A stretch of 64,000 nt of DNA from Cyanophora paradoxa CCMP329 (lineage: Eukaryota > Plantae > Glaucophyta), in contig QPMI01000059.1 in NCBI GenBank assembly GCA_004431415.1, positions 124,001 to 188,000 on the forward strand. Direction: 5' to 3'. The notes below the pieces were generated by a model. It searched no databases and was not told the DNA's origin. It saw only the letters and a list, made by a program, of their open reading frames with translations. Numbering within the stretch: position 1 is the first letter of the stretch; each line of letters starts with the position of its first letter. A program made the position numbers and the translations under genes. Positions 1-26,773 of the stretch are shown in pieces.

Positions 1-978
1 TTGAATGGAAATAAATACATGGTCAGCACAAGTAGTTCTTCTGGATATCGGCATCAGTACACCACAGCATTATCAAACATTTTTGCCAGTGGCATGACTG
101 TATTTTCAGTGAGAAAGCACACTGCCACAGGTAACCAATCACATTTTGTAGTTACCAATGATGACACAAGTGACCCTACATACGGGAGATATATCACACT
201 GGGAGCAGTTAATGGAAATTCCCTTGGTATTATCACTTCCACATTAACACAAGTCTCAACAACAAGCTTCTTGAATTCTTGGGGGTTGTTCGACTTTCAA
301 TTAACCCCTACAACACTAACTATGGGGTTGAATGGCGCAGATGTATCTCCCTCAATTACTGGAAGCTTCCTGTGGTCAAACACGCCGACCATAAAAATAA
401 AGGAACTCTCATTCACTTCCTATGTAGGAGAGATAGCCGAAGTTGTAATTTTTAATCGGGCTTTATCTCCAACTGAAAAGAGTTTCATGAGATATTACTT
501 TAAGCTCAAATTTGGGCTTGACTTTCCATACACTTATCCCGAAACATACACTCAGCTCTCAGCAAATCTTTTGGTAGACAAGCTCAGTGTGAACACCAAT
601 GTTTACGCAAGGTCTTTCTATGAGGTGGCCACTGGAACTACAAATAGTCTAAGTAAAATCCCGACATGGAATGAAATCAGGCAACGATTTCTATCTGGGA
701 CTTTCCAGATGAGTATAGGACCCCTCAACGCCAATAGCCGTGGAGAAGCCACTTATATTTTAAATTGGAACCCAGCATTCAACACGAAACCACCTGTCAT
801 TAGTTTAGTAATGGAAGGAACCCCTGTGACAACCCAAGCGCTTGGCTATAAATTTGGATTATCGAATTCAAGTTCTACCTCGTCCACAGTTCATGTTACC
901 TTGCTAACTGATGCGACTGCTACAGCAAATACGACATATACCTTCACAATTCACTGGACAGCATATGGAATTCCGTGA
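1..978 (+). CDS. Fibre/adhesin-like protein, 5'-truncated (LamG-like region plus C-terminal H-type-lectin-like beta module)
   Basis: S/T-rich. 'YVGEIAEVVIFNRALSPTE..YFKLKFG' is typical of a LamG/concanavalin-like domain end. The C-terminus (NVYARSFY..FLSGT..NWNPAFNTKPPVISL..IHWTAYG) resembles that of 21649-23187 (NAYARNFY..IQAGT..NFNSSFANPPIVTT..IHYIAVA). Confidence 0.6.
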   Translation: MNGNKYMVSTSSSSGYRHQYTTALSNIFASGMTVFSVRKHTATGNQSHFVVTNDDTSDPTYGRYITLGAVNGNSLGIITSTLTQVSTTSFLNSWGLFDFQLTPTTLTMGLNGADVSPSITGSFLWSNTPTIKIKELSFTSYVGEIAEVVIFNRALSPTEKSFMRYYFKLKFGLDFPYTYPETYTQLSANLLVDKLSVNTNVYARSFYEVATGTTNSLSKIPTWNEIRQRFLSGTFQMSIGPLNANSRGEATYILNWNPAFNTKPPVISLVMEGTPVTTQALGYKFGLSNSSSTSSTVHVTLLTDATATANTTYTFTIHWTAYGIP

Positions 979-1017
979 TGAAGCTTTATTTTTCTATCCT
1001 TCTTAATAGAAGAAGTA

Positions 1018-1863
1018 ATGGGCGAATATAATCGAGTCCAATTACCAGTTTACGCATTGGGGAGTCCAGCAATTCATTTTAGACAACATGAAGTGTCTGA
1101 TGAAGTTCGTGGAATGGAATCAACAGAACGGGCAAATTCAGGTAATGCTTTTGACAAGAATAGTATGATTCGTGTAAAAGAACTGAGAGCTGATAAAAAT
1201 TCGGGAGTGGTGAAAACAACTCAACTTCTTGTAACAAATGCGAATTTTCAATCAGCAAATGGACAACCTGATGCGTATGGTGTAGATATCAAAGCATTTG
1301 AATTTGACAATACAAGGGCTGCTGCTGTTATAAGATCAGGAGGAGCAATAATTGGTGGTGGCTGTAGAGTATCGGGAATGCTTGGCTCTTCTGCTGCCTT
1401 TAATGATTTTCCGGACACTTTACCTGAACATGCTGATAATCCCCAAAGAATTCGCATGTTTCTTCCATGCGGGGATTCCCCGTATGCTTTTGGTATCATT
1501 AGAGCTAATGTAAATACGCAAAATGCCACTCAACCCCAAGGTATTGCCGGACCATGGAAATTGGCTAATCAGCTTCTACCAAAGGCAATGTATTCTATGT
1601 GTCGCTCTCAGAATGGAGGATTAGAAGGTTATACTTTCTTTGTTCAAGCAGTAGGCCATGGTGGGCGTGGATGGATCACAAGAAATCCTGCCACACAACC
1701 AAACAGTTTCGATTTTTGGGCATCAGAGGTAGGGGGTTATGATATTTTAATTTTTGGATATCGTAATGATGAAGCAGCATGGGCTGTTGCCAACTGTATA
1801 AATCCTGATTCGCAGGTCTCGAATTTCTACAATGAACCATTTCCGAATGATCCCATTCCGTAA
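1018..1863 (+). CDS. Fibre-like protein with conserved N-terminal anchor and phage-fibre-type C-terminal domain
   Basis: N-terminal ~120 aa (RVKELRADKNSGVVKTTQLLVTN..RSGGAIIGGG) is shared with 1883-2728, 23207-24277 and 24300-25319. C-terminus (LPKAMYSMCR..VQAV..ILIFGYRND) is paralogous to 1883-2728. Confidence 0.6.
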   Translation: MGEYNRVQLPVYALGSPAIHFRQHEVSDEVRGMESTERANSGNAFDKNSMIRVKELRADKNSGVVKTTQLLVTNANFQSANGQPDAYGVDIKAFEFDNTRAAAVIRSGGAIIGGGCRVSGMLGSSAAFNDFPDTLPEHADNPQRIRMFLPCGDSPYAFGIIRANVNTQNATQPQGIAGPWKLANQLLPKAMYSMCRSQNGGLEGYTFFVQAVGHGGRGWITRNPATQPNSFDFWASEVGGYDILIFGYRNDEAAWAVANCINPDSQVSNFYNEPFPNDPIP

Positions 1864-1882
1864 TTATGTTTCAGTATATTAA

Positions 1883-2728
1883 ATGGCAGCACCAGCACCA
1901 CCAGAGCGCATTTTAACAGCGCAACTATCATTAGCTGCTCCAGCTAACCACGTCTTACAGCATGCTATTATTGATAATATTGATGGTCTCGAATCCACAG
2001 AGATAGCCCCAACTCTGAATACTTTTGGTGACACTCACATGCTAAGACTAAAAGAGTTAAGATGCGACAAAAATAATGGGGTCGTTAAAACTACTAAACT
2101 TCTTGTAACAAATGCGAATTTCAACGCATTTCATGGGGATCCTGATAGTTACAATGATGATAACAAGGTAACCAATTTTGCCTACGAAGCAAGAAGGGGA
2201 GCAATTAAATGTAGGTCAGGAGGTGCCTATATTGGAGATGGTTTAAGGGTTGGTGGAATTATTGGAGCGCCTTTATTAGTAAATGATCAACCCAATCCAG
2301 ATGATGTGAATACAAGAATCAGGACATATGTCCCGGGAATGAATGAGCCTTACATTATCAAAATCAACACAATCATTATCAACCTTCAGACTGCTTTTCT
2401 TGATATTTTAGAGCCTTTGGGAAATCATTATAGATATACTGAGACGTTGCCTGCTGATATTTACTCATTATGTAGACGAACTGATGGAGCAAGACCCCGT
2501 ATTACAGTCCAAGTAGTCCCAGTAGATAATTTCGGTCTTGCTTTTCATTCATTGCCCCTACTTGACACACAAGATGACCAATATATTATAAGAGCCACAC
2601 AACAAGGGACTTACACAGTGATTATGTATGCTGAAAGAAATGATGAAATAGCCAGAGGAAATAGATATGGTCAATATCTAACCACCAATTTATACAATCC
2701 CATTGGTGGAAGTGATCCTTTGCCTTAA
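1883..2728 (+). CDS. Fibre-like protein, tandem paralogue of 1018-1863
   Basis: Same length (281 aa). RLKELRCDKNNGVVKTTKLLVTN..RSGGAYIGDG anchor; LPADIYSLCR..VQVV..VIMYAERND..DPLP C-terminus. Confidence 0.6.
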   Translation: MAAPAPPERILTAQLSLAAPANHVLQHAIIDNIDGLESTEIAPTLNTFGDTHMLRLKELRCDKNNGVVKTTKLLVTNANFNAFHGDPDSYNDDNKVTNFAYEARRGAIKCRSGGAYIGDGLRVGGIIGAPLLVNDQPNPDDVNTRIRTYVPGMNEPYIIKINTIIINLQTAFLDILEPLGNHYRYTETLPADIYSLCRRTDGARPRITVQVVPVDNFGLAFHSLPLLDTQDDQYIIRATQQGTYTVIMYAERNDEIARGNRYGQYLTTNLYNPIGGSDPLP

Positions 2729-2782
2729 ATCGTCAGACATCTGTTACACATTATTGTTTTTTCTTAGCTATTGGTATTCAAA

Positions 2783-3199
2783 ATGCTTGCCAAAGGTTAC
2801 CATGTGATGCTCGATTTCCAATTCAGCCAACCAATTAGCGACCATGTGGGGCTCTCTAAATGGCTCATGAATGTCAGTGAAGACATCATCAAGAAATATG
2901 GAATACAGGTTGTCCACAAACATGCTGAGATTTTTGATGGCACCAAATCACCCCCTGGATTTGCCCAAGTATTATTATTAGATGAAAGCCATTGCTCTGC
3001 TCATTGCTACAGTGATCAAGGCATGTTGGCAATAGATATATTCAGCTGTGGAAAACAGGCAGAAAGGAATACAAGTTTAATTGCTTTTGAGCTGGAGGAG
3101 GAGATAAACAAATATGCTGTTGGATTTGGGGCAGTGATCAAAAAGAGATTACACCATGAGAAGAGGCGTTTCGAGCATCAATTATTGGATGACAATTGA
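2783..3199 (+). CDS. speD: Prokaryotic-type pyruvoyl-dependent S-adenosylmethionine decarboxylase (SpeD-like) proenzyme
   Basis: GYHVMLDF..PPGFAQVLLLDESHCSAHCYSDQGMLAIDIFSCG: intact E-S-H autocleavage motif and DIF[ST]CG motif. First ATG is at 2783. Confidence 0.9.
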   Translation: MLAKGYHVMLDFQFSQPISDHVGLSKWLMNVSEDIIKKYGIQVVHKHAEIFDGTKSPPGFAQVLLLDESHCSAHCYSDQGMLAIDIFSCGKQAERNTSLIAFELEEEINKYAVGFGAVIKKRLHHEKRRFEHQLLDDN

Positions 3200-3273
3200 C
3201 TGGTGCCAAAAAGACGTGATTAATACCCTAAGACCTAAAATAGATGCTGACTACCCTAGTGCCTAAAACGCGC

Positions 3274-3346
3274 ACACATAGGGATATGCCAGATCCAAGC
3301 CAGAGGGCGAAGCCCGAGGGCTTGGATCTGGCATATCCCTATGTGT
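3274..3346. repeat. Perfect 28-bp inverted repeat (hairpin) with GGGC-GAA-GCCC cap, directly followed by CTAG
   Basis: 3274-3301 ACACATAGGGATATGCCAGATCCAAGCC is the exact reverse complement of 3319-3346. Spacer is AGAGGGCGAAGCCCGAG. Confidence 0.95.
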
Positions 3347-3815
3347 CTAGTGGTGCCAGTCGATGGCACTCGAATCGTGACTCGATATCGATGCTGCCGG
3401 TGCCAGTGGTGCCAGCGGCCAGCTGCAGCGGCCAGCCCACTGCCAGGCTGACACTCAACCGGTACTCAGTCACTGGCAGTCACTGCAGCTGGCACTCACT
3501 GCTTCTCAGTGACTAAGTGAGTCACAGTGACAGGCCCCCTGCCAGGCCCCTGGCCCTGAGGCCTAAACCGTAGAGCAGGAAATACTGGACGCTGAAAATG
3601 AGTGGAGTCCGAATTTAGTGGACCGAAATCTTGACTTCGTCCACTAATTTCGGGCTCCGCTAATTAACTGATGGGAAGCGGCCTCATACAGTATATACGT
3701 ACCCCTCGAAATTACTGCCCCATACAAGCCTGAATTGTTTTCGCCTAATTAATGTAAGGGAGGCGCCTAGGGCCAAGCCTTATGATCCACTAGCTAAGTT
3801 TTCCGATCTGGTATC

Positions 3816-4476
3816 GCTCGCTGGGGGGTCACCCCCACCAATTGCGCGCAAAAAAAGCCGACCATGTCAATAAGCAGGTCTTACATCTCCCACAATTCTC
3901 AGTGCGAAAATCATAAATTCGCACTGAGCCACACTACATTTTTCAAACATCTAACTCCTCCTTACTGAAACCAATCACGAAACCATTTCATTCTTCATTT
4001 TTCTAATCCCTTACCATTTTCAGTAAGCCCTAAAACCCTCTCTCGATTTCTCAGTAAGGACAGTAAGACCCTTATTTTTACGAAATGTTCCCGATCGTTT
4101 CCAGACTGTTTACAGTTACCCAAATTGAAAAATCAAGGTGACCCCACCGATAGCCTTAATCCGGATGGATCAAATACGAAATCAAGGTGACCCCCACCGA
4201 TAGAGTACGATAATCGACAAAGTACGACGATAGAACACGATTAATCGATTGAGTTCGCAAGTTTATGCTGCCGAAAATGCCCACCTGCACAAACTTGCGA
4301 CTTCAATCGAAATGTACTTCAATCGAAATGTACTTCAATCGAAATGTACTTCAATCGAAATGTACTTCAATCGAAATGTACGAATCGAAATGTACGATTA
4401 GCATATTTACGACAAAGTACGACGATAGACCACGTTAAAATACACTCGCGCCCCGCCCACTATGCAAGATACATGC
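3816..4476 (+). repeat. Left terminal inverted repeat (661 bp)
   Basis: Reverse complement of 25648-26309, from GCTCGCTGGGGGGTCACCCCC to CAAGATACATGC. The only difference noticed is a C4/C5 homopolymer near 4142. Confidence 0.97.
4301..4396 (+). repeat. 16-bp tandem repeat CTTCAATCGAAATGTA x5 plus one degenerate copy inside the TIR (mirrored at 25728-25823)
   Basis: Read directly from the sequence. No spacers. Confidence 0.95.
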
Positions 4477-4526: not shown

Positions 4527-5336
4527 ATGAAGACTCACTTTTACCATAAATATACCGGCAACAAGTATAATGAAATGGATACGATCTATCCATATATCGA
4601 TTTAGAAGGAATTAATAAAGTTATAGAACCGTTTTGTGGTTCAGGTGCTTGTAGTTTCTATCTTTGGGAAAAGCATAAAGACCGGTTTGATTATTATATG
4701 AATGATAACGACGAAACCCATACCCTTTTTTTGAATACAATGAAAGACCCAGACAATAAAGTTAAACTCTTAGAGAGTCTTAAACAGTTCGAAGCAGTAA
4801 GCAATATAGAAGAGCATAAAGAAGTCTATAAGAAGTTTCTACAACATGATCGTAAAGATGCAATGGATTACTTAGCTCACCATTTCTATCTTCTTAAAAA
4901 CAGCGTTTTAAATGTTAAAACCCTCCGTGATTTCAAAAAACGAAACGTGAAGGTGAGTCCATATACAACTCTTAAAAAGAAGATACCTTACGATGATTTT
5001 ATTAAAGGAGCCAGCCTATCCCATGGGGATTTTCGCGATATTGTAGCCAAATATAGAGATGATGAAGCGGCTTTTATATTTCTCGATCCTCCATACGTAA
5101 ACAGCAATAATGACTTTTACGAAAATGTAGAATTCGATTTAGAAACCTTCTTTTTGGATTTGGAAGACCTATTTAAGACAGCGAAATGCAAGGTTATGAT
5201 GGTTGTAAATGATGCTCTTTTAATGAAACTCCTATTTAAACCCTATATTCGCCATACGTATGGCAAAGTGTATGGTATAACAAAACGAAAAAGGAACCAT
5301 ATCATAATGACTAACTATGAACTTGGTGAAAAATAA
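4527..5336 (+). CDS. Dam/D12-class N6-adenine DNA methyltransferase
   Basis: KYTGNK, VIEPFCGSGA (SAM-binding motif I), YYMNDND, FIFLDPPY (catalytic motif IV). Confidence 0.9.
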   Translation: MKTHFYHKYTGNKYNEMDTIYPYIDLEGINKVIEPFCGSGACSFYLWEKHKDRFDYYMNDNDETHTLFLNTMKDPDNKVKLLESLKQFEAVSNIEEHKEVYKKFLQHDRKDAMDYLAHHFYLLKNSVLNVKTLRDFKKRNVKVSPYTTLKKKIPYDDFIKGASLSHGDFRDIVAKYRDDEAAFIFLDPPYVNSNNDFYENVEFDLETFFLDLEDLFKTAKCKVMMVVNDALLMKLLFKPYIRHTYGKVYGITKRKRNHIIMTNYELGEK

Positions 5337-5570
5337 CGATTAAGTCATGTATATATTTCGTATATATGTCCGAACCTCCGTGTGTGTGATCCCGCACAAC
5401 TTTGATTTTTTTGTTTTTTTGTTTTTTTTCTCATATGGCGACATATACATATATATACCGGCGTCACCGACATATTCGGGGTCATCATATCGGGGCGATT
5501 CCGAAAACATATAGCATGCCACAAAGTAGTAATTAATGTTTTTGTTGTGGTATTCGACCAATCACAAGCC

Positions 5571-5660
5571 ACTAGAAAGGGGGAATACCGATTTACTAGA
5601 AAGGTCTAGAAAGGGGGGCTACCGGTTTACTAGAAAGGTCTAGAAAGGGGGGATACCTAA
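5571..5660. repeat. Short imperfect tandem repeats (CTAGAAAGG / GGGGG..TACC) in a non-coding spacer
   Basis: CTAGAAAGG occurs 5 times. A T-rich tract (~5400-5430) and an A-rich tract (~5710-5760) flank it. Confidence 0.8.
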
Positions 5661-5910
5661 AAACTGACAGCTGTTAACAGGTGTCACATGCAAAAAAACC
5701 CAGAGTTCGAACAAAAACTAAAAACAAACAAAATCAAAAAACCAAAAAAACAAAAAGCCGAAAACCGCCATACAAACCGTCAAACCCCTGTATCTCTTCA
5801 CCAACTCATCGCCATTCAAAAATGAAAATAGCGCCGTGACCGTCTTGATGAGACCAGCACGCACATGTAGATATCATATGGTCATTAAAATATTTGTCAA
5901 ATAATTAATA

Positions 5911-6348
5911 ATGGATTCCCGATACCGCGGCTACCACGTTATGCTCGACTATATAACCGACCCGTTCACCGAGTCCCCGGAGGCATGCGCCGAGTGGATC
6001 ACAGCGAACCTATCGCAATATATAACAGATCGCAATATGCGCATCGTGCACCAGCACACATGCATTTTCGATGGCTCTATTTCCCCTCCCGGTTTCGCGA
6101 TCGGCTTCTTATTAGATGAGTCGCATGCGACAGCTCACTCTTATAGCGACCAGGGGCTATTAGCGATCGATATCTTTACCTGCGGCTCAAATGCCGAAGC
6201 AAAGACGATGGGAATAGCACAGGACATTAACGATCTCATACAAGAAAGGCTGAAAGTGCGAAAGTGGGACTTATCTTCCCTTTTAGATACTCGATGTAGT
6301 CACTCTTTCCTTGGAACTTGTGAATCGGTGTATAAATCAGCACAGTAG
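5911..6348 (+). CDS. speD: SpeD-like AdoMetDC proenzyme (3' end possibly rearranged)
   Basis: GYHVMLDY..IFDGSISPPGFAIGFLLDESHATAHSYSDQGLLAIDIFTCG; clear homologue of 2783-3199. Its 3' end overlaps the convergent helicase ORF by 113 bp. Confidence 0.88.
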   Translation: MDSRYRGYHVMLDYITDPFTESPEACAEWITANLSQYITDRNMRIVHQHTCIFDGSISPPGFAIGFLLDESHATAHSYSDQGLLAIDIFTCGSNAEAKTMGIAQDINDLIQERLKVRKWDLSSLLDTRCSHSFLGTCESVYKSAQ

Positions 6349-7396
6349 ACAGATCGCGGTTACGAGTGAGCGCGGTATAGAACCATTCGCGAGTGGTATA
6401 GCGGAACGTAGCCTCACAAATGACAATGCCCGAATCAAGTGTGAGACCTTGCGTTGAATGACCTGTTCCTGCATAAGGGAGAGAAAAATGTTCTAACATC
6501 GCGCACGGAACCTCAAACGTGACACCATCGAAAACGTCCGTTAATGTGACCATTTGCTTTGTGATTTTGGTGATTCGATAGGTGTAATTCGTGTATGCGT
6601 TTATAGACTCGCCCTCAGACCGCGAAATGCGTAGATACTTGCGGCAAACGACTTCCAAACCCTTGTAGAATTTGATGCCATTGACCTCTACGGTTGGGAT
6701 ATTTACTTTGCGTCTATCGTGCATCAGTTTGTTGTAGGCTAAGGTCATTTCGTTTCTGTAAGCGATGCCAAAGTAGCCGTCGGGAATAGCGCTTAGATCA
6801 TTAATTGTCGGCAACCCGTATTTCGAGATAATCTGTGCGGCTTCCAGTCCGTTCTCGAAGAGATCCTCTTTAATCGCCCGAATTAATTCACGGTCTGTCT
6901 CCTTCTTGTGCCGCTTGTTATTGCGTAGACTCAGAACGTTAGGGAACATGCTCTGCACAGCGCGCTTATAGTAGCCCTTGCGATCAGAAACCGAGAGCTC
7001 GTCATTAATTGGTTCGTTCTGATAGGTATCGCCATTAGCCAAATATTTGATATCCGGATAGCGATCGATAAACGACTTGATCTTAGCGAGATCTTTTACG
7101 GAATACGCAAATATCTCGTCGAACATAATGTGGCTGAACTCAGATACGAACGCCCTCTGGTCTTTTTCGCTCATAGCCTCTTCGTAGGTCTGATCATTTG
7201 AGACACGGATCCCGAGAACATTATACAAAGTACGAACGGTAATATTCTCGATTCCGCGGACTTTGAGAGAGTCCCTTAGCTCTGCGCACTGTTTGTTATA
7301 GGGGCAAATAACTAAGCAATTTGACTTTTGAGATGCGAAACAGTTAATACCGAGTGTCGACTTTCCACTTCCGGGCATGTCAGCAAGGACAAGCAT
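6236..7396 (-). CDS. SF1B (Pif1/RecD-like) helicase domain, probably the frameshifted C-terminus of the PolB-like gene
   Basis: ADMPGSGKS (Walker A), IMFDEIF (Walker B), GDTYQNEPI (III), LRNNKR (IV), YAGTGHSTQGLTL (V), FYTALTR (VI). The frame stays open upstream to ~7461. Confidence 0.88.
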   Translation of the reverse strand: MLVLADMPGSGKSTLGINCFASQKSNCLVICPYNKQCAELRDSLKVRGIENITVRTLYNVLGIRVSNDQTYEEAMSEKDQRAFVSEFSHIMFDEIFAYSVKDLAKIKSFIDRYPDIKYLANGDTYQNEPINDELSVSDRKGYYKRAVQSMFPNVLSLRNNKRHKKETDRELIRAIKEDLFENGLEAAQIISKYGLPTINDLSAIPDGYFGIAYRNEMTLAYNKLMHDRRKVNIPTVEVNGIKFYKGLEVVCRKYLRISRSEGESINAYTNYTYRITKITKQMVTLTDVFDGVTFEVPCAMLEHFSLPYAGTGHSTQGLTLDSGIVICEATFRYTTREWFYTALTRNRDLSTVLIYTPIHKFQGKSDYIEYLKGKISPTFALSAFLV

Positions 7397-10338
7397 ACGA
7401 TTATGGAGCTTCGCAACCCAATTAAAGCACTCCGGATTAAATTCGTCCTCAGCGAGAACCGGTTAATGAGTGTCTCGGGATCCTGAAATTCGAGAGTTAC
7501 ACCCCGTGGTGGGCGGAGTGCATTCTCAGGGCATCTTTTCCCGGGAATATAGCTGAATTTGCCCATGTTCTCAAACGCATTTCGGTCGAACTCTTTCTTA
7601 CTTGTCCATGAACCTTCGATATAAAGACAGTCCGTTCTGATCCCGGCAACCTTGTGCCCGCGTGCTGTCAGGCGCTTGTATTGCGCAAACATATTAGCGC
7701 GGTTACGATCGTAAATATGAAAGTGGATAGGAAGGAATCCGTTAACGAGCTCGCGGTGGGAGCTGATCTTAACGAAATAGATGTGACCTTCGAATTCGCT
7801 AAGAGTTTTGACACGTTTCGAATTCTTAGGATTGAAAGTAAACACCTCTACTGTTCCTCCGCATTCTTGGGCGAACCTCTCAGCCTCGGCACGGTTGTAG
7901 AACATTTTCGTGGATGTTTGCGAGTCTTGGAATTTGCCGAGCATTCCGATCTCTTTCACTAAAATGTGTTTCTTGTCCGTGGTTTGAATGTCGCTTGACA
8001 GCACTTTCTTCATCTCAGCGATCGACATATTGGGCACCAAATGCGAAGGCTCCGCGACCGCGATAATCTCTATCTTGTCCTTTACGTCCGCCCAGTGCAT
8101 GGAGAGAGTGTAGCCTGTCATGAAATTATAACAGCGACCACTCACGGAAAATGCGCGATCCAGAATAATTTCGATTCCATCAATCTTGCGAGACATGGCG
8201 GCATCATAATCTACATCCTCATCGTCGGCGAAAGTCGCTTGCTCTCTCTCAAACGCAACGACACGCACGTAGTAGATCGCGTATTCGAGAATATCGCTTC
8301 CCGCTTTAAAGGGAACGAAGTCATCAAACACATTGTATTTCGGAAGATATTGCATGCCTTTCAGTATCGAAGGGTAGCACTTCGCCATATCGACAGCTGT
8401 GTAGGTAGCTTTCGGGTTCGGCTTATAGAAAAAGCCGCTTAGTGCGGATCGCTTGTAGTGCGTGAGAATTTCGCGCATGTTCGGGCTGTAATGTGAGATA
8501 TTCGTCGCATTTAGAAGCGACTCGCGGAAACCCTTCCCGATTTCACAGACCTTATTATAATACTCCTCTGTTTCGAAATCTTGCTCAATAAAGTGGTCTG
8601 TTGTGCGCGGATCTTTGATAGAGAACATGGAGCCATTAGCTTTGAATGTGATGCTGTCGATCTGTTTCGATGGTGTAAGCTTCACAGCGGGCTCATATCG
8701 CATTTTCAGGAACGTAAATAGAAGCCCTTCCAGACCTTCGCGCCCAGTATAAAGAATGCGAATGAAACTGCGCTCGTCGGGCGATAGTTTTAATTGCGTG
8801 ATCTTTAACAGATCCTTGGATGTGTGCGCGAAGATATCGTGAGTAAGACACGTCGGAATTTTATAGAGTGCTAACGAAGAGGTCGACTTAGGAACATGAT
8901 TATCGAGCTCTTCGACCTCCATCTTTGCCATGCGCATTTCGAGCGACTTGATGTTATCGTTGAATATATAGATGTGCTTGTTGTGAATCATAAAGTGAAT
9001 ATTGCGTGGAAAGATGTTTTTGTTAATTGATTCCGCCGCGAATTTGTATATTAACTTTCCGTCGACATCAAAGACGCGGAAGCCTGTCTGGATTCTCTTA
9101 CAGAATTTCTCAATTTGGCGGAGCGTGAGAGCCAGAGAGTCGCCAGGTGTGCGTTCGCGACCGTGAAAGAATTTATAGAGACCGTCGTAGGACATAGTTA
9201 AGTCAGTATATCGCGGTTTTGGCGCCTCCTGACACTTCTTAATGGACGCTCCCCATGTGGAGATGATCATATCATAGCCGCAAGCGTTAGATGTCGATGA
9301 TTTGGGAAGCTCAATAACATCTTCGAACTCAGACGCGTTTGGATTTAATGTATAGTCTGTGAATTTGCTCATAATCGCGGTGCATCGCATACTGTCCATT
9401 AGCTCCTCATCCAGGAACTCATAGCGATTGCCAGGTATAGCGCCGGCTCCATCGTCCTCGACACCTTCGTCCCCATCGATCGCGACCTCATGAACAGTTA
9501 TAAAGGCATCATCGATACTGCCGCCAAAATCATCGAAACCTTTGCGTAGTTTTTTCTGTTCCTCGGTTGGTGGTGTCTTAAAGAAGAACATCTCGTATGC
9601 TTGTCCGAAAGTTCCCAGACGAATCTTCAATTCATCGTAGTTTTCGAGTAAATCGAAGATTGATTCGCTCTCATGCCAATCATGACGAACTTGACCCGGT
9701 CTAATTAGAATTTGAGACATTCTATCCATTTTCGCCAGAGCAAAGCTTCGCAACACACTCACCGAAACTGTCTCTCTTATATTGCGGTAGGTGACAAAGG
9801 TTCTGTCTGGTATATTTAATTCGGGAATTCCGGGAATAACAATTACCTCCGACGACCGAGCACCGGATCCAGGTCCCCATAGCTTGAACGTAATTGTTGC
9901 GAGAGTTTCCGGATCGTATGCGGCGATTGGGTCGAGAATAGTGCGTTTGATCGCATCCTCTACCGCTTTTAGTTTACCTCTCTGCTGCTTTGCTTCGAGC
10001 TTCGCTTCTTTCGCTCGTTTCTGTTCTTGCTTGCGATCGAAGCGCTGTAAACGCTTAGCCTCTTGTTCTTTTTGCTTTTGCTTTTCTATATTAACTTGGG
10101 TGCGAGCGGCGCGCTTTTCTTTCCGCTCTGCCCTGCGGAAAACGCGGGGATTAATGATGCCATTCAGAGTATCCCGAATGTCTATCAGCGTTTGGAGCTT
10201 GGGCTTCCGATTCATTGTGTTGTGCATCGCCCAATGCGCCTGTTCTTCGGTTAGCAAATCCTGACTCAATCCCTGCATAATGTATCCGATAATTTCATCC
10301 CGAACATTGTTAGCGATTCTGTTGGTTGCGCGCGGCAT
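7312..10338 (-). CDS. Divergent protein-primed family B DNA polymerase-like polyprotein (basic N-terminus, putative vOTU protease region, polymerase palm)
   Basis: AVDMAKCYPSIL (motif A), KHILVKEIGMLGK (degenerate motif B), AGIRTDCLYI (motif C). SNACGY..HNKHIY is a candidate Cys/His dyad. No clear exonuclease motifs. Confidence 0.75.
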   Translation of the reverse strand: MPRATNRIANNVRDEIIGYIMQGLSQDLLTEEQAHWAMHNTMNRKPKLQTLIDIRDTLNGIINPRVFRRAERKEKRAARTQVNIEKQKQKEQEAKRLQRFDRKQEQKRAKEAKLEAKQQRGKLKAVEDAIKRTILDPIAAYDPETLATITFKLWGPGSGARSSEVIVIPGIPELNIPDRTFVTYRNIRETVSVSVLRSFALAKMDRMSQILIRPGQVRHDWHESESIFDLLENYDELKIRLGTFGQAYEMFFFKTPPTEEQKKLRKGFDDFGGSIDDAFITVHEVAIDGDEGVEDDGAGAIPGNRYEFLDEELMDSMRCTAIMSKFTDYTLNPNASEFEDVIELPKSSTSNACGYDMIISTWGASIKKCQEAPKPRYTDLTMSYDGLYKFFHGRERTPGDSLALTLRQIEKFCKRIQTGFRVFDVDGKLIYKFAAESINKNIFPRNIHFMIHNKHIYIFNDNIKSLEMRMAKMEVEELDNHVPKSTSSLALYKIPTCLTHDIFAHTSKDLLKITQLKLSPDERSFIRILYTGREGLEGLLFTFLKMRYEPAVKLTPSKQIDSITFKANGSMFSIKDPRTTDHFIEQDFETEEYYNKVCEIGKGFRESLLNATNISHYSPNMREILTHYKRSALSGFFYKPNPKATYTAVDMAKCYPSILKGMQYLPKYNVFDDFVPFKAGSDILEYAIYYVRVVAFEREQATFADDEDVDYDAAMSRKIDGIEIILDRAFSVSGRCYNFMTGYTLSMHWADVKDKIEIIAVAEPSHLVPNMSIAEMKKVLSSDIQTTDKKHILVKEIGMLGKFQDSQTSTKMFYNRAEAERFAQECGGTVEVFTFNPKNSKRVKTLSEFEGHIYFVKISSHRELVNGFLPIHFHIYDRNRANMFAQYKRLTARGHKVAGIRTDCLYIEGSWTSKKEFDRNAFENMGKFSYIPGKRCPENALRPPRGVTLEFQDPETLINRFSLRTNLIRSALIGLRSSIIVCLSLLTCPEVESRHSVLTVSHLKSQIA

Positions 10339-12351: not shown

Positions 12352-13218
12352 TTATCTTTTCTTACACTTGATTAACATTTTCTTTTTCTTGGGCGAAATT
12401 TGCGAAAGTTTGGGGATACCTTCAAGCTCACGCTCAAATTTGGATAAAGTTTTGCATACAGTTGTCGAATCTTTGACAGGCGGCGGTTTTGTAGCTTGCT
12501 CCTCTTGTTGTTTGCGCTTCTTTTCTTCAAAAGCCGCCCGCTTGTGGAATTTCGTAAACGGATGGTCATCGATCATATCGGCTTTTTCGACCCACCATCG
12601 CACAGAATACCCGGTATTATCGTGAATGATCGCTTGGTAGCTATGACAGAATTCTTGGAACATGCGCTTAAAACTCTCTTTATCCATGTTCCCGAACTCT
12701 TCGTGATATGCTTCAAACTCTCGCATGTTTGACCAGCTTAGGAATATGATATACTCCGCATTGCTGCGAATGATCGTTGAAAGTTTTGTTAGTTTCTGCG
12801 ATATTAAAGCCACGGAACAAAACGTATGACGACCTTGCGCCATCAATTTATTTAGCAAATGATCGCGCGAAAGATCGATAGTTCCGGACTCCAAACAATC
12901 GTCGAGCACAATAAGAATATTCTTTGGTTTCTTACCCGCAATGATAGCCTTTTTGCGGGCTTCTATGATCGACTCTACGTATTCCGGTTTCCAGGTATCA
13001 TGTACTTCGTCTGTTATTTGACCCCAGAAACCGTTAAAACTCGTAGGACAGAAAACCAGAACATACGAGATCTGGTCTTCGAGTTCTTTGATCAGCCACT
13101 TTAAGAATACCGATTTACCACAATTGGTTTTCGCCAATAGGAGAAATCGTGCGGGAAGTTTCACCCTTTGTTTCGGGTTCCATTCTTCGAGATCCATGGG
13201 CGTCGTCCCTTTTTGCAT
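12352..13218 (-). CDS. A32/FtsK-HerA-like genome packaging ATPase
   Basis: LLAKTNCGKS (Walker A), ILIVLDDCL (Walker B), QGRH, ISQKL, IRSNAEY. Lies next to the MCP. ATG at 13218 preferred. Confidence 0.92.
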   Translation of the reverse strand: MQKGTTPMDLEEWNPKQRVKLPARFLLLAKTNCGKSVFLKWLIKELEDQISYVLVFCPTSFNGFWGQITDEVHDTWKPEYVESIIEARKKAIIAGKKPKNILIVLDDCLESGTIDLSRDHLLNKLMAQGRHTFCSVALISQKLTKLSTIIRSNAEYIIFLSWSNMREFEAYHEEFGNMDKESFKRMFQEFCHSYQAIIHDNTGYSVRWWVEKADMIDDHPFTKFHKRAAFEEKKRKQQEEQATKPPPVKDSTTVCKTLSKFERELEGIPKLSQISPKKKKMLIKCKKR

Positions 13219-13276: not shown

Positions 13277-14590
13277 TCATGCTGATACTCTTCGGATTCC
13301 GTCGGCGGAAATTATCATTATGTTATGAGCGAGGGCAATGCACTGAATTTGCATCTTCTGATACGCGGAGCCCGCATACCACTCCTCATTACCGACTCCA
13401 CCGGCTGTGACACCGTTGAATTCGAAGACCAGATCGAACGCCGATGTGCCTGTGGCATCGATGTAGCCCGTGTTCTCTTGGTTGAGAAGCGACGCCTTTC
13501 CGTTTCCAGCACCGAAGTAAATGCCAGTGAGAGCGGGGTAGCTTGTGCTCTCGGTAAAGATCGCCGAATTATATTTATCTTGAAGTTCGGTCGCGGCAAT
13601 CATGAGAGGAAGCGAAGTATTCGAGTAAAGGCGGTTATTGTTGAGTTCCACATAGAAGTTCACAGCGTTGGTTCGGAGTGCACGAGGAGCCAGAACCGAG
13701 AGAGTTCCGTTGTTCACCTTCGTCTTCGCGTTTTGGCGCACAGAGAATACGAGAGTGTGGATGAGACCCGCACCTGTGAGTTGCGAGAGATTGACTCGCG
13801 AACCGGAGGCGGTCGGCTGGAAATCTGTGTGGAGGAAACCGATTTCGTTGTAGGGGATCGCGATACCAGTCGATTTAACACGGGCAATGGTCTCAGATAC
13901 AACCGCCTCATCGGCATTTACGACCTTGCAGATAATGCGGGGTTTCAGCACTTGAAGGGAAGCACCACTGTTTACGACCGAAATATTGCCAACATTGTTT
14001 ACATCCTCAATGATACCATCACCAATCGCCTTGAATTCGATTTCGACCACGATCTCAGAGTTCAGAGCGCAAAGTGGGAACATCGCCTTCTCGAAAGGAG
14101 AGGGTAAATCGATTTCGTAGGTTCCACCGACAGTGTTACCAGCGGTTCCGACAAGACCACCCACATAGCGAAGTTTCTTATCGAGTTCGCCCTGTTCGGT
14201 CATCAGTAGAAAATACTGGGTGACGAAATCCTCTGGGACAACATAGCGGAATGAAGCGTGAGAGATTTCAATGCGCTTAATTAGCGATCCAATAACGCGA
14301 AGGTAGCCAGTAGTTCCAGCGACACCATTCGTGAGATCAGTGAGGGTGATCGGGTTAAGATCGAGTTGCAGCGCGAGACCATTCAGGAAATGGTAGCGGG
14401 GGATTTTGAAGACAACTCGGTTGCCGAGAGCGCTGGGTGGCTCAGTGTCGGGGGCGACCAGAACTCGAAGTGGCTTAGTGCCAGAGGACGTTCCAATGAC
14501 CAGCGACTTGTTTAGGAAATAATCCTTGTAGTCATCGGTGGTGAGCATAGATTTCAGCGTTGGGCGCTGGAATTGGCTGTTAGTCTCCAT
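13277..14590 (-). CDS. Double jelly-roll major capsid protein
   Basis: 437 aa, beta-rich. GNRVVFKIPR, LIKRIEI, FPLCALNSEIVVEIEF and C-terminal IALAHNIMIISADG follow PLV/NCLDV MCP patterns. Sits between the ATPase and minor-capsid-like genes. Confidence 0.85.
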   Translation of the reverse strand: METNSQFQRPTLKSMLTTDDYKDYFLNKSLVIGTSSGTKPLRVLVAPDTEPPSALGNRVVFKIPRYHFLNGLALQLDLNPITLTDLTNGVAGTTGYLRVIGSLIKRIEISHASFRYVVPEDFVTQYFLLMTEQGELDKKLRYVGGLVGTAGNTVGGTYEIDLPSPFEKAMFPLCALNSEIVVEIEFKAIGDGIIEDVNNVGNISVVNSGASLQVLKPRIICKVVNADEAVVSETIARVKSTGIAIPYNEIGFLHTDFQPTASGSRVNLSQLTGAGLIHTLVFSVRQNAKTKVNNGTLSVLAPRALRTNAVNFYVELNNNRLYSNTSLPLMIAATELQDKYNSAIFTESTSYPALTGIYFGAGNGKASLLNQENTGYIDATGTSAFDLVFEFNGVTAGGVGNEEWYAGSAYQKMQIQCIALAHNIMIISADGIRRVSA

Positions 14591-14637: not shown

Positions 14638-15563
14638 TCAATAGAAATTCATTTCGGGCGGTGCGTCGTAGGTTTCGATTTCAAAAGTGAAATAATGCGC
14701 CCAAACCCCGAAATCTAAGAGAGCGCCATCATGGTCGATGAGTTTAATCGTGAGGCGGTCGAAAGATTTTAATTCGCGGAATTCACGAATGAGAGGCACC
14801 GTAGTGGACGTGTCGAAGTGGTAGATATCACCATGTTCGAGTTCCTGTGGGATTGGAATGCGCATGAAATAACCATCGACGTGCTTGTTGACTGAGCGAA
14901 TAAACGGCGCAAATTCATCAATATATAGCCAGATCATCGCCGCCGGGGTCTCATCTCCACGAGTATAGCCGCGAATGCGTCGATTGAGTGTCACAGTTCC
15001 CGTCCCAGGATTAAACACAAGGAATGTATCGCTTGCAAAAGGGGTAAATGTCTCGTAAACATATAGCTGAATATCTTTGAAACCGAATATTGCGAGTTTC
15101 TTAGCGATTGCTTTGCGATTACTGGATTTTCTGAGTGTTTCAGGGAAGCTTTGGAGAACTTGAACCAAAAGTTACTATCACTGAAAAACTCATAGATCTT
15201 TGAAGTAGTATTATAGCGGCATTTAATATATTTTCCACCGAAATCTGAAAGGCGAGCTGCTTCGAGTCTTTCTGTGACTTTTGCGGCAAGGTCGTCTTTG
15301 GTGTAAAATCCTTTGGGGATTGTGATGGTCACGAATCCGGAATCCGAAGCTGTGACCGAGAAATAGAGTTCCATGCGCTCGATGGTTGCACCAGTGGCGT
15401 CTATATCATTTGTCACAGTCGAAAGAACATTGGGAACCGTTGCCTGCACCAGGCGCACCGATTTTACGTTGTCATAGCGACGGGGTAATGTCACTACATA
15501 CTTGTTTGGCTCTATGAACTCCTCGTCGCGATCATCGCTCGAAAAGCTCAGGTATTCTTTCAT
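14638..15563 (-). CDS. Minor capsid (penton)-like protein, split by one frameshift near 15150
   Basis: N-half LSFSSDDRD..YVVTLPRRYDNVKSVRLVQATVPN; C-half IWLYIDE..FDRLTIKLIDHDGALLDF..FTFEIE. One extra A in TCC AAA GCT (minus strand) would join the two frames. Confidence 0.7.
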
Positions 15564-15579
15564 CTTACTATAATAGATT

Positions 15580-16425
15580 ATGAAAAGAATAACAATAAAT
15601 TGCGACAGTAGAGACCTTGAAAACGGCGTGCTGCACTTGAAAACGCGCCTTAATAATGTAAGGCGATTTCGTGTGCTATCCGCTGAGATTCCCAATAGCT
15701 CTTATGTTGTTCCGCCCGATCAGACAATTACTATAACGCTTCTGAACGAAGAGCCCACGGTAATCCCCGCATCCAAAATGATAGCACCGATTCCCAGCGT
15801 AAACGATTATTATTACGTTGATGCTGATAACGAACGATATCCGAAAGAGAGAGCTTTAAACAGTGATGCTTTACTCGGATTTGCGGGCGGTTCTTTTAAT
15901 CCACTCGGTGTCTTCCCGGTTTCCTATTCTCTCGCTCTGTCCACAAACCGCTTCGTGTTCTCGTCTCCAAACAGCCCGTTTACATTAGTGTCCTCAGACC
16001 AGGAGCTCTGTGATTGTCTCGGCATAGAACCCGGAGTGGTTTACGCCAGCACACCAGAACCAGTGACGGTTCCACTCAGAGATTACCCCAGTCGCTATGC
16101 ATTTACGTGCCCGAAAATGGTCGACTTTAATGCGATTCCATATATTTACCTTGATATCGAAGAGCTCCGCCCGTTTACCAAATTCGCAGCGGTTACAGGT
16201 AGACTGAACAATGTCGACGACTCCTATCTATTGCGAATTCAGATGAACTCGGACTTTGGTAGATATTCCTTTTACCACGAACCGAGCGCAAGCATCCCTT
16301 TCGTAAATGTCACATCGCAACTCGATTTAGATCGTCTCACAATTTCGCTTCGAAAATGGCGGGGCTCTGTTGCGGATATAAACGGTCTCGCATTCTCGTT
16401 CCAGCTCGAAGTGATCACGGATTAA
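15580..16425 (+). CDS. Second minor capsid (penton)-like protein
   Basis: ITINCDSRD..LNNVRRFRVLSAEIPN..YIYLDIEEL..LDRLTISLR..DINGLAFSFQLEV; same pattern as 14638-15563. Confidence 0.72.
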   Translation: MKRITINCDSRDLENGVLHLKTRLNNVRRFRVLSAEIPNSSYVVPPDQTITITLLNEEPTVIPASKMIAPIPSVNDYYYVDADNERYPKERALNSDALLGFAGGSFNPLGVFPVSYSLALSTNRFVFSSPNSPFTLVSSDQELCDCLGIEPGVVYASTPEPVTVPLRDYPSRYAFTCPKMVDFNAIPYIYLDIEELRPFTKFAAVTGRLNNVDDSYLLRIQMNSDFGRYSFYHEPSASIPFVNVTSQLDLDRLTISLRKWRGSVADINGLAFSFQLEVITD

Positions 16426-23206: not shown

Positions 23207-24277
23207 ATGACCTCCCTTTTAGAGATTCCAAACTATGAACTTGCAGCCAAATCACTCCACAGCACCTCTCATGAAGTAGTCGACTCCACACCCGGTTTTA
23301 TTTGCACTGAAACTACAAGTAATACCTCTTTCACAGAGAACAGTATACTGAGGGTCAAAGAAATTCGATGTGATCGAAATGGAGGCAAGATTAGAACCAC
23401 AGGCATTATAATCTCGAATAAAAACCAAGTTCAAGCAGGTCAGGTAGTCCCCAATTCAGCAATATATGATAATGTGGGTGGATTCACCACAGCACAGATA
23501 GTTACTTTTGGTAATACAAGCAATAATTCTGCTCTTGTGGTGAAAAGTGGAGGAGCCTACATTGGTGATGGAGCAAATGTAGCAGGAACTCTGACAGCAA
23601 ATCAATTGACTGTGAGTGGGACATGTTCATTTGCAGGATTGATGACCTTTAATGGTGGGCTTTCAGGGAGTATTCAGTATGGAACTCTCACACTTACAAC
23701 AAGAATAAATACACCTGAGATTGACAACATGAGTGACACAGTCATGAATTACAAGAGGAATGGGGATACCATTCTTTCTCTTCAAAAAACTATTCAGACA
23801 GATAACACAACTGTTCAACATCTCACACTTCCGACAAGCAAATATCTCAAATTAAGTAGCCATCCTCGTTTCTTTGCAACAAAACAGCAACCAAATGGGT
23901 CAATAACTGCAACAATTTCCTCAATAAATATATATCCAACAACAGGAGTCATAGTGAACCAAGGAAATCATTTCGATCCTGCGACAGGGCTTTTTACTGC
24001 CCCTGTTACAGGAAACTATCTTGTCACATTTAGTGGATCCTGTTATACGGCTGGAAGACCAGGTATTATAACAACATTTTTACAGAAAAACGGAAGCTCA
24101 TCTGGAATTGAAGTTAATAATAATTATCCATCTGTGTATGCAAACAATGGATTGGAAATAATCGTTGACCTTCAAGCTAATGATTCCATCAAAATATCAT
24201 ATAGTGTCAGTGGTGGAGCTTCTTCATATTATAATATCAGATGGTTCTTTGGATGTATGCTTCTCAGCTCTTCATAA
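23207..24277 (+). CDS. Fibre protein: conserved N-terminal anchor plus C-terminal C1q/TNF-like head
   Basis: RVKEIRCDRNGGKIRTT..SGGAYIGDG anchor; HPRFFA..VNQGNHFDPATGLFTAPVTGNYLVTF..IVDLQANDSI..FFGCML is a C1q pattern. Confidence 0.8.
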   Translation: MTSLLEIPNYELAAKSLHSTSHEVVDSTPGFICTETTSNTSFTENSILRVKEIRCDRNGGKIRTTGIIISNKNQVQAGQVVPNSAIYDNVGGFTTAQIVTFGNTSNNSALVVKSGGAYIGDGANVAGTLTANQLTVSGTCSFAGLMTFNGGLSGSIQYGTLTLTTRINTPEIDNMSDTVMNYKRNGDTILSLQKTIQTDNTTVQHLTLPTSKYLKLSSHPRFFATKQQPNGSITATISSINIYPTTGVIVNQGNHFDPATGLFTAPVTGNYLVTFSGSCYTAGRPGIITTFLQKNGSSSGIEVNNNYPSVYANNGLEIIVDLQANDSIKISYSVSGGASSYYNIRWFFGCMLLSSS

Positions 24278-25647: not shown

Positions 25648-26309
25648 GCATGTATCTTGCATAGTGGGCGGGGCGCGAGTGTATTTTAACGTGGTCTATC
25701 GTCGTACTTTGTCGTAAATATGCTAATCGTACATTTCGATTCGTACATTTCGATTGAAGTACATTTCGATTGAAGTACATTTCGATTGAAGTACATTTCG
25801 ATTGAAGTACATTTCGATTGAAGTCGCAAGTTTGTGCAGGTGGGCATTTTCGGCAGCATAAACTTGCGAACTCAATCGATTAATCGTGTTCTATCGTCGT
25901 ACTTTGTCGATTATCGTACTCTATCGGTGGGGGTCACCTTGATTTCGTATTTGATCCATCCGGATTAAGGCTATCGGTGGGGGTCACCTTGATTTTTCAA
26001 TTTGGGTAACTGTAAACAGTCTGGAAACGATCGGGAACATTTCGTAAAAATAAGGGTCTTACTGTCCTTACTGAGAAATCGAGAGAGGGTTTTAGGGCTT
26101 ACTGAAAATGGTAAGGGATTAGAAAAATGAAGAATGAAATGGTTTCGTGATTGGTTTCAGTAAGGAGGAGTTAGATGTTTGAAAAATGTAGTGTGGCTCA
26201 GTGCGAATTTATGATTTTCGCACTGAGAATTGTGGGAGATGTAAGACCTGCTTATTGACATGGTCGGCTTTTTTTGCGCGCAATTGGTGGGGGTGACCCC
26301 CCAGCGAGC
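25648..26309 (-). repeat. Right terminal inverted repeat (662 bp)
   Basis: Reverse complement of 3816-4476. Confidence 0.97.
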
Positions 26310-26529
26310 TATATATTTTCCTAGCTGTCACACGGTACGTATTTTAGTCAGGGCCTGTTACGCGGTACTACGGTACGCCGCCCCGTACGCGGCAACTTTA
26401 CGCCTCCTACTGTGAGTCCTACAGAAGTTAACAGAACTAAGTAAATTAGTACTAGCCTCCTACGTATACTACGTACCGGCCGCGGCTAGAGTACGTTACC
26501 GGTAAATCACTCTTGATCGGTCTGAAATA

Positions 26530-26773
26530 CTGTAAACGTACTAATATCCACCAGCACTTTAATTCGACAAAACCCGAAAATCCTGTCGAAAATTAGTCGA
26601 CGTCCGCCAGCGTCTTGATTTCGACACCCTGCGAATTCGCCATAGAGAGGTCAGCCGCTGGTACCCCTCTCTCCATACAAAGGCTTAATTCGCCAGCGTC
26701 AAATATTCGACTTCGCGAGGGTCTGGCGAATATAGTCGAAATTAAACGCTGGCGGAAATTCGTACGTTTACAG
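26530..26773. mobile_element. MITE, Tc1/mariner-type (TA target)
   Basis: TA|CTGTAAACGTAC...GTACGTTTACAG|TA; the imperfect TIR extends ~38 bp. Confidence 0.8.

What the first reader, a model, noticed from the sequence alone, without database searches (positions are those of the whole stretch)
4527..6348. AdoMetDC conserved in both viruses and placed next to a DNA adenine methyltransferase
Seen: two diverged SpeD-like genes (2783-3199, 5911-6348) with intact ESH and DIF[ST]CG motifs, each near an element end. No spermidine synthase is present in element B. Known: AdoMetDC turns SAM into decarboxylated SAM, an aminopropyl donor that is not a normal methyl donor; some homologues decarboxylate arginine or ornithine instead. 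Inference: it could (a) supply polyamines for DNA packaging, (b) drain SAM to blunt host methylation silencing, or (c) speculatively feed the neighbouring MTase-fold enzyme for a non-methyl DNA modification. A metabolic gene kept in ~20-kb PLVs is unexpected.
Basis: partly seen in the sequence, partly recalled or inferred. Interest (0 to 1): 0.8.

Follow-up and report, generated by a model that had tools for sequence, protein, structure and literature searches.

The report
Arginine decarboxylase in algal polinton-like viruses
A 22-kb DNA virus integrated in a eukaryote's genome and the end of a likely second one each carry a gene that resembles SAM decarboxylase but is likely an arginine decarboxylase, probably exchanged with giant viruses, that would raise polyamine supply during infection, while the neighbouring DNA methyltransferase is likely an ordinary, unconnected viral gene.

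Summary
Both SpeD-fold genes and the Dam-family methyltransferase are real. Element B (3812-26313) is a polinton-like virus (PLV) with 665-nt terminal inverted repeats; element A is probably a relative. The SAM-based readings are poorly supported. Both proteins fall far from canonical AdoMetDCs, inside the marine-archaeal/planctomycete/eukaryote branch whose tested members decarboxylate arginine only (SpeDA; PMC10407285), and their nearest relatives of known context are in giant-virus contigs. Relatives sit beside SpeY or agmatinase genes (142 of 160 loci), never beside spermidine synthase or a D12 methyltransferase (0 of 167). Only B's gene neighbours a methyltransferase; A's follows fibre-like genes. 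The window's B copy is broken: a deletion at 6273 removes the gene's end and whatever lay downstream, while other copies in 4 of 4 runs continue in frame, and 7 of 8 variants are synonymous. Best reading: a stand-alone viral arginine decarboxylase making agmatine for host polyamine synthesis; the methyltransferase probably shields the genome from restriction (both elements avoid CTAG and GTAC). The substrate is inferred, not assayed, and the motif test was inconclusive. I found no report of a polyamine gene in a PLV. Known enzyme type, new viral host.

The parts
2783..3199 (+). SpeD-fold pyruvoyl decarboxylase of element A, full length, predicted arginine decarboxylase (SpeDA branch)
   Evidence: PF02675 44.6 bits; model pLDDT 93.5, Foldseek to 1vr7; trees
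1018..2728 (+). Two paralogous ORFs of element A (1018-1863, 1883-2728) sharing an N-terminal domain with element B's C1q/fibre-like genes; the upstream neighbours of the A gene
   Evidence: blastp E 1e-18 to 2e-21 to 23207-24277 and 24300-25319; C1q in those
3812..4476 (.). Left terminal inverted repeat of element B (outer edge may lie a few bases in)
   Evidence: Arms 3812-4145/25980-26313 and 4142-4476/25648-25982, 100% complementary as reported
4527..5336 (+). D12/Dam-family (alpha-class) DNA amino-methyltransferase; m6A likely, m4C not excluded
   Evidence: PF02086 E 6e-16; TIGR00571 below cut-off; only PDB hit 7m6b, an N4-cytosine enzyme; GC3 0.33
5911..6348 (+). SpeD-fold decarboxylase of element B; codons 1-121 (5911-6273) genuine, the tail is read-through across a deletion junction in this copy
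   Evidence: PF02675 43.7 bits; RF strand missing; loose ends at 6273 in 4 of 4 runs; 7 of 8 variant sites synonymous; GC3 0.60
6236..7396 (-). SF1 helicase part of the replication gene, cut at its 3' end by the same junction
   Evidence: Viral_helicase1/UvrD_C_2 weak hits; loose ends at 6273; 24 of 26 variant entries synonymous
7312..10338 (-). Protein-primed family B polymerase-like ORF, out of frame with the helicase in this copy
   Evidence: Atlas hits 0.95-0.96 to DNA_pol_B_2 clusters; one extra base near 7446 in contigs of 4 of 4 runs
12352..13218 (-). A32-like packaging ATPase
   Evidence: PF04665 E 2e-10
13277..14590 (-). Likely double jelly-roll major capsid protein
   Evidence: Atlas 0.98 to viral clusters, 12-18% of members Capsid_N; recognition value low; no Pfam hit
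25648..26313 (.). Right terminal inverted repeat of element B

Best explanation
Both elements carry a small SpeD-fold gene whose product likely cleaves itself to form a pyruvoyl cofactor and likely decarboxylates L-arginine to agmatine rather than SAM, which would feed the host's polyamine synthesis during viral replication, and the adjacent methyltransferase is likely an independent gene. Shown: fold, catalytic residues, position in the tree, gene neighbourhoods of relatives, purifying selection among B-type copies. Inferred: self-cleavage, arginine as substrate, conversion of agmatine to putrescine and spermidine or homospermidine by host enzymes (the virus encodes no downstream step in the part seen), use of polyamines for translation and DNA packaging, and exchange of the gene with co-infecting giant viruses. 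The methyltransferase would make an ordinary amino-methyl mark that protects the genome against restriction enzymes of giant viruses; TGCA is a candidate target.
For: Branch: 79 of the 80 best genome hits (of 340) are titled as Poseidoniales/Marine Group II or unranked euryarchaeal MAGs; named hits further down are planctomycetes. PMC10407285 (sections 4, 7) reports one SpeDA clade of marine group II archaea, Gimesia, Solirubrobacter, Nannochloropsis and Tribonema, all active on arginine and none on ornithine or lysine; the three of them that were put into an E. coli speD mutant did not complement it. Three such archaeal genomes each have one PF02675 gene, no spermidine synthase, and in 2 of 3 a SpeY gene right behind it. 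SpeY within 3 kb in 130 of 160 metagenome and genome loci, agmatinase-like gene in 28, either in 142; spermidine synthase in 0 of 167 loci with a positive control. Of 37 long relatives, 5 are fused to SpeY, 1 to an arginase/agmatinase, 4 to PQ-loop transporter domains, 0 to spermidine synthase or a DNA methyltransferase. Trees: PLV proteins group with giant-virus homologues (99/86, 87/90); grouping the two with canonical AdoMetDCs is rejected (AU p 0.0014). Selection: 7 of 8 variants synonymous against 22-28% expected (P below 0.001). Methyltransferase: most PLVs carry one (bioRxiv 2026.06.19.733378, section 9); no D12 gene in 167 loci; GC3 0.33 against 0.60; B's genes avoid GGCC (0 vs 24), CTAG (0 vs 24), GTAC (5 vs 44), and A also avoids TGCA (0 vs 14) while B does not (81 vs 70).
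Against: No assay. None of the tested SpeDA proteins of this branch could be fetched, so none is in my trees; the link rests on taxon, gene cluster and single copy. The tested AdoMetDCs of eukaryotic viruses (HaV01, Yellowstone Lake phycodnavirus 2) could not be fetched either, so I did not exclude directly that they lie in this branch. The diagnostic-proline test is inconclusive: the Pro after the catalytic His is absent here and in 0 of 109 relatives present, but 2 of 4 validated phage AdoMetDCs also lack it, and I could not see the figure that defines it. With P0001 added to the constraint the AU test no longer rejects (p 0.09). The alignment has 135 columns and long branches. The archaeal loci are close kin and count as about one lineage. 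Four long relatives are fused to an NNMT-like SAM methyltransferase and two to SET domains. Four giant-virus records with more distant members lack agmatinase, agmatine deiminase and SpeY as well as spermidine synthase, so the fate of agmatine is open. The host's polyamine genes were not examined (no genome held).
Confidence: 0.6

Rival explanations
1. The proteins are true AdoMetDCs that supply decarboxylated SAM to the host's spermidine synthase, or drain SAM and so blunt methylation silencing.
For: Same fold and catalytic residues. Stand-alone class 1b AdoMetDC is the commonest polyamine gene of phages, and two eukaryotic viruses encode functional ones (PMC9992855 passages). Proline test inconclusive. 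AU test with P0001 not rejected.
Against: Best blast score to canonical proteins 52 bits against 101-110 to speY-linked archaeal ones; below the TIGR03330 cut-off; no spermidine synthase near or fused to any relative examined. Draining SAM would also starve the element's own methyltransferase (inference).
Confidence: 0.15
2. The enzyme is an arginine decarboxylase, but its role is in conflict rather than supply: it would deplete arginine or build up agmatine to slow a co-infecting giant virus or to dampen a host response.
For: No downstream enzyme in the visible part of either element or in four giant-virus records. Restriction-site avoidance suggests a life alongside giant viruses. PLVs are described as possible antiviral defence (PMC12220804, abstract start in listing).
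Against: Giant viruses carry the nearest homologues themselves, which fits a pro-viral role; tested enzymes of this branch are slow (kcat/Km 20-180 per M per s), poor for depletion.
Confidence: 0.12
3. The gene is a passenger picked up from a giant virus with no current function, or a catalytically dead fold with another role.
For: The window's B copy is truncated and frameshifted; no other PLV with the gene was found in six viral scans (only 19 and 85 sought this gene); no RNA holder listed (not evidence).
Against: Kept in two elements at 46% identity with all catalytic residues; synonymous bias among B-type copies as strong as in the helicase.
Confidence: 0.09
4. Decarboxylase and methyltransferase form a module that puts a non-methyl group (aminopropyl or agmatine-derived) on viral DNA.
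For: Adjacent and co-oriented in element B (574 nt apart); some relatives are fused to small-molecule SAM methyltransferase domains.
Against: Not adjacent in element A; 0 of 167 related loci hold a D12 gene; 0 of 11 loci fetched with the methyltransferase alignment hold a SpeD-like gene among the 10 that the profile recovered; different base composition; canonical motifs; the predicted product is not decarboxylated SAM.
Confidence: 0.03

Closest known systems
SpeDA pyruvoyl arginine decarboxylases of the marine group II / Gimesia / Solirubrobacter / Nannochloropsis / Tribonema clade (PMC10407285)
   Same: Class 1b SpeD fold, Ser/His/Cys triad, 45-46% identity to speY-linked Poseidoniales proteins, no spermidine synthase partner
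   Different: Encoded by a 22-kb virus, with no speY or agmatinase beside it; activity untested; no viral member of this clade is named in the sections read
Phage SpeD-derived decarboxylases, e.g. pelagiphage HTVC201P arginine decarboxylase (PMC9992855)
   Same: Stand-alone viral auxiliary gene, same fold, same predicted reaction, relies on host enzymes downstream
   Different: Unrelated branch (HTVC201P scores 20 bits on the archaeal profile against 108-123); bacterial host
Chlorovirus PBCV-1 arginine-to-homospermidine pathway (PMC9992855 passages)
   Same: Algal virus that makes agmatine from arginine
   Different: PLP-dependent ODC-fold enzyme with three downstream viral genes in a giant genome
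Class 1b AdoMetDC (T. maritima 1tlu/1vr7; phage S-PM2; HaV01)
   Same: Fold (TM 0.70), cleavage and catalytic residues
   Different: About 21% structural-alignment identity, separate tree branch, below equivalog cut-off, no spermidine synthase context
PLV DNA methyltransferases (bioRxiv 2026.06.19.733378, section 9)
   Same: Common PLV accessory gene proposed to protect against giant-virus restriction systems
   Different: Nothing unusual found; target site unknown

Membership tests
Class 1b SpeD structural family | PF02675 match and AdoMetDC half-sandwich fold | tested here: met
Class 1b SpeD structural family | Cleavage Ser with downstream His and Cys (T. maritima S63, H68, C83) | tested here: met
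   A: S69, H74, C89; B: S71, H76, C91 (residues named)
Class 1b SpeD structural family | Autocatalytic cleavage to a pyruvoyl enzyme | not testable with these tools
   needs protein
Bona fide AdoMetDC | TIGR03330 equivalog cut-off | tested here: not met
   48 and 47 bits against 75.65; an archaeal speY-branch protein also fails; divergent phage AdoMetDCs were not scored
Bona fide AdoMetDC | Groups with validated AdoMetDCs in a tree | tested here: not met
   separated at 100/98; AU p 0.0014 for A+B, 0.09 with P0001 added
Bona fide AdoMetDC | Conserved 'gamma' proline of PMC10407285 Fig. 8 | tested here: inconclusive
   The Pro after the catalytic His is absent in A, B and all 109 relatives, present in 8 of 10 canonical proteins but only 2 of 4 validated ones; which Pro the figure marks is my inference
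SpeDA arginine decarboxylase | Nested in the branch with speY/speB-linked marine group II and planctomycete proteins | tested here: met
   the assayed proteins themselves were not in the tree
SpeDA arginine decarboxylase | Occurs without spermidine synthase | tested here: inconclusive
   none in window 1-27000 or 167 related loci, but B's downstream segment is deleted, A is mostly outside the window, and the host was not searched
SpeDA arginine decarboxylase | Decarboxylates arginine, not SAM, ornithine or lysine | not testable with these tools
   needs assay
SpeDC ornithine decarboxylase | Diagnostic Gln, Thr, Phe, Tyr and grouping with the HTVC201P-containing clade | tested here: not met
   HTVC201P lies far away; A and B read DESH, not the QxxETSH-type pattern seen in HTVC201P; figure not seen
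Polinton-like virus (element B) | TIRs, 15-40 kb, A32 ATPase, jelly-roll capsid, replication gene | tested here: met
   no integrase or recombinase recognised
Polinton-like virus (element A) | Capsid, ATPase and terminal repeats | not testable with these tools
   only 3.2 kb in the window; paralogy with B's fibre-like genes and shared site avoidance
Dam-family N6-adenine methyltransferase | Motif I before DPPY, PF02086 | tested here: met
Dam-family N6-adenine methyltransferase | Methylates adenine | tested here: inconclusive
   the only PDB hit (7m6b) is M.CbeI, an N4-cytosine enzyme of the same class (PMC8616854 passage)

The most novel reading that the evidence does not exclude
Endogenous polinton-like viruses have taken an arginine decarboxylase from the giant viruses they travel with and use it as a metabolic weapon, shifting arginine into agmatine to tilt the three-way conflict of alga, giant virus and PLV; this would be the first metabolic effector of a PLV, and it marks an unrecognised arginine-decarboxylase branch across eukaryotic DNA viruses now mislabelled as AdoMetDC.
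Probability: 0.12. Interest if true: 0.75.

Novelty: new member of a known kind. Interest (0 to 1): 0.4.

Why it matters
If the substrate is confirmed, the smallest eukaryotic DNA viruses join phages and giant viruses in carrying polyamine genes, and a branch of giant-virus 'AdoMetDC' genes is re-read as arginine decarboxylases, a type so far reported in viruses only from phages in the papers I read. A 22-kb genome spending a gene on agmatine, under purifying selection across copies, suggests polyamines limit PLV replication and gives an easy assay. The shared branch with giant viruses and the restriction-site avoidance also suggest that these integrated elements still replicate alongside a giant virus. 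The exotic idea of a new DNA modification is unlikely.

Tried and rejected
Own genome not held, so host polyamine genes and other copies could not be searched. Searches of viral contigs with B's capsid and ATPase found no relatives; the methyltransferase alignment gave 11 distant loci (21-35% identity); a degenerate motif scan gave one locus, the contig of L003 again; a homologue search with the truncated B protein returned nothing at E 1e-8. No RNA holder listed: no evidence on expression either way. The record of Yellowstone Lake phycodnavirus 2 was not held, and a scan with the S-PM2 protein returned only S-PM2. PMC12467396 passages gave no substrate-contact residues for class 1b enzymes. 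The proline motif looked decisive at first and was downgraded. Complex prediction was not run: no claim of binding is made. One or two acquisitions by the PLVs is unresolved (AU p 0.455). phiN3 was left out of the second tree for its very long branch, and P0019 and P0029 (partial) out of the first.

Full report
Setting. The first 26 kb of the window are AT-richer (36-49% GC) than the rest (50-72%). Perfect inverted repeats at 3812-4476 and 25648-26313 bound a 22.5-kb element, B, with an A32 ATPase, a likely jelly-roll capsid protein, a polymerase-B-like ORF, an SF1 helicase, a patatin lipase and fibre-like genes with PTR, H-lectin and C1q domains. It is a polinton-like virus; I recognised no integrase. 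Bases 1-3200 hold the end of a second unit, A, two of whose ORFs share a domain with B's fibre-like genes (E 1e-18 to 2e-21); its viral nature is inferred. Earlier unreviewed notes name the genome as the glaucophyte Cyanophora paradoxa; I did not test this, though PMC12220804 mentions a PTR plus H-lectin protein in a PLV of that alga (passage), the architecture of ORF 21649-23187.

The observation. Both SpeD-like ORFs pass the Pfam AdoMet_dc cut-off, keep the cleavage Ser and the His and Cys, and the A model has the class 1b fold. The methyltransferase is a D12/Dam-family protein with both motifs. Its only PDB hit, 7m6b, is an N4-cytosine enzyme (PMC8616854 passage), so 'adenine' is likely but not secured. 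Only B's decarboxylase gene neighbours it.

The B copy is broken. B alone of 31 aligned sequences lacks the C-terminal RF strand and overlaps the 3' end of the convergent helicase. Contigs of 4 of 4 runs laid on 5850-7700 leave the window at 6273 in both directions (table 7). Read by eye, the letters on one side extend the decarboxylase in frame by nine codons, with RF, to a stop; those on the other extend the helicase. The window's copy therefore has a deletion junction, and the DNA between the two genes in other copies is unseen. The same runs show one extra base near 7446, where polymerase and helicase are out of frame. The runs hold many variants, as expected of a multi-copy family; of the 8 listed in the decarboxylase, 7 are synonymous and one is Asp to Glu, against 22-28% expected (P 0.00015-0.0008). 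The helicase gives 24 of 26. Three further variant rows were not shown by the tool.

What the enzyme is. The A protein finds 109 relatives, all with SPPGF and DESH motifs in the 31 aligned and the 78 printed. In genomes, 79 of the best 80 of 340 hits are titled as marine group II or unranked euryarchaeal MAGs. PMC10407285 (abstract, section 3 part 1, sections 4 and 7, section 8 part 1, supplement text; figures not held) describes one well-supported clade of SpeD homologues from marine group II archaea, Gimesia, Solirubrobacter, Nannochloropsis and Tribonema that act on arginine only and cluster with speY and speB. My loci show that context: a deoxyhypusine-synthase-like gene within 3 kb in 130 of 160, an arginase-family gene in 28, either in 142, and no spermidine synthase in 167 (positive control found). 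Three of these archaeal genomes have a single PF02675 gene and no spermidine synthase (incomplete genomes). Among the 37 proteins of 225 aa or more in the 150 listed profile hits, fusions are to SpeY (5), arginase family (1), PQ-loop (4; known to me as cationic amino-acid transporters, recalled), NNMT-like methyltransferase (4) and SET (2), none to spermidine synthase. With four validated phage AdoMetDCs and the HTVC201P arginine decarboxylase fetched as anchors, the trees place A and B inside this branch, with P0001 and a group that includes loci L008, L010 and L018 (99/86; 87/90). L008 carries an NCLDV capsid, D5 primase, Erv1 and RNase III, and L010 and L018 share its gene order, so the nearest relatives of known context are giant-virus genes. 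Holding A and B with canonical AdoMetDCs is rejected (p 0.0014); adding P0001 to the constraint is not (p 0.09). Profile scores are 123 and 108 bits for ten speY-linked proteins against 57 and 50 for ten canonical ones, only four of which are validated. Against this reading: no assayed member of the branch is in the tree, the tested eukaryotic-virus AdoMetDCs could not be fetched, the proline test is inconclusive, and the alignment is short. I put arginine as substrate at about 0.75.

The methyltransferase link. A profile from the window enzyme and three homologues, and a broader one of 13 sequences, found no D12 gene in the 167 decarboxylase loci (1.8 Mb); the first recovered 10 of the 11 methyltransferase loci as a control, none with a SpeD-like gene. 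D12 genes occur elsewhere in 2 of 4 giant-virus records. Most PLVs carry methyltransferases (bioRxiv 2026.06.19.733378, section 9), so one neighbour among about 15 genes is unremarkable. The two genes differ in GC3 (0.33 against 0.60). B's genes lack GGCC and CTAG entirely and are short of GTAC (0 vs 24, 0 vs 24, 5 vs 44 in synonymous shuffles); A avoids CTAG, GTAC and also TGCA (0 vs 14), which B does not (81 vs 70; fibre genes alone 26 vs 22) (host DNA in the window avoids none). This is the pattern expected of genomes exposed to restriction enzymes, and makes TGCA a candidate site for B's enzyme (inference; A's own methyltransferases are outside the window).

How it likely works. On activation the small proenzyme would cleave itself at Glu-Ser, form the pyruvoyl group and convert arginine to agmatine; host agmatinase or agmatine deiminase would give putrescine and higher polyamines for translation and genome packaging. 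This parallels the pelagiphage enzyme and, by another fold, PBCV-1 (PMC9992855, passages and supplement part 3 of 4). Four giant-virus records with more distant members have no spermidine synthase, arginase/agmatinase, agmatine deiminase or SpeY (two are 91% complete), so the gene travels alone in viruses and the use of agmatine is the weakest step. A role in conflict with the giant virus is not excluded.

Novelty. Searches found no paper with 'Polinton-like virus' and 'S-adenosylmethionine decarboxylase', 'Polinton-like' and 'polyamine', or 'endogenous viral element', 'speD' and 'Polinton'; 'virophage, decarboxylase, agmatine' gave only PMC9992855, where virophage is in a reference title; 'SpeDA' gave only PMC10407285. 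Four PLV surveys have no 'decarboxylase' in their main text; their supplements were not seen and may list it. The library lacks most subscription papers. Interest 0.4.

Noticed in passing
window 4477-25647 and 1-3200: Strong avoidance of GGCC, CTAG and GTAC in element B and of CTAG, GTAC and TGCA in element A, absent from the flanking host DNA; the A/B difference at TGCA points to a candidate target of B's methyltransferase.
   Followed up: partly
L008:10001-10387, L010:1223-1612, L018:3656-4045, also L003-L006: Giant-virus contigs carry SpeD-like genes of the predicted arginine-decarboxylase branch, next to Erv1 and RNase III in three loci; such genes are probably annotated as AdoMetDC.
   Followed up: partly
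P0182, P0225, P0247, P0248; P0159, P0162, P0189, P0193: Eukaryote-like fusions of this decarboxylase with an NNMT-like methyltransferase (two also with SpeY) and with PQ-loop domains, suggesting an undescribed methylated-polyamine route or transporter coupling.
   Followed up: no
window 14638-15563 (-) and 15580-16425 (+): A minor-capsid-like gene appears split in two ORFs, head to head with a paralogue (E 1e-7); a further break in this copy.
   Followed up: no
window 3812-26313: No integrase or tyrosine recombinase recognised and no clear target-site duplication; the TIRs hold 16-nt tandem repeats (4284-4381, 25743-25840).
   Followed up: no
window 27019-27215 and 61610-61806: 197-nt inverted repeat pair, 94% complementary, 34 kb apart, flanking GC-rich host-like genes.
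   Followed up: no
window 3244-3811 and 26314-27000: Non-coding stretches rich in short palindromes on both sides of element B, possibly ends of other elements.
   Followed up: no
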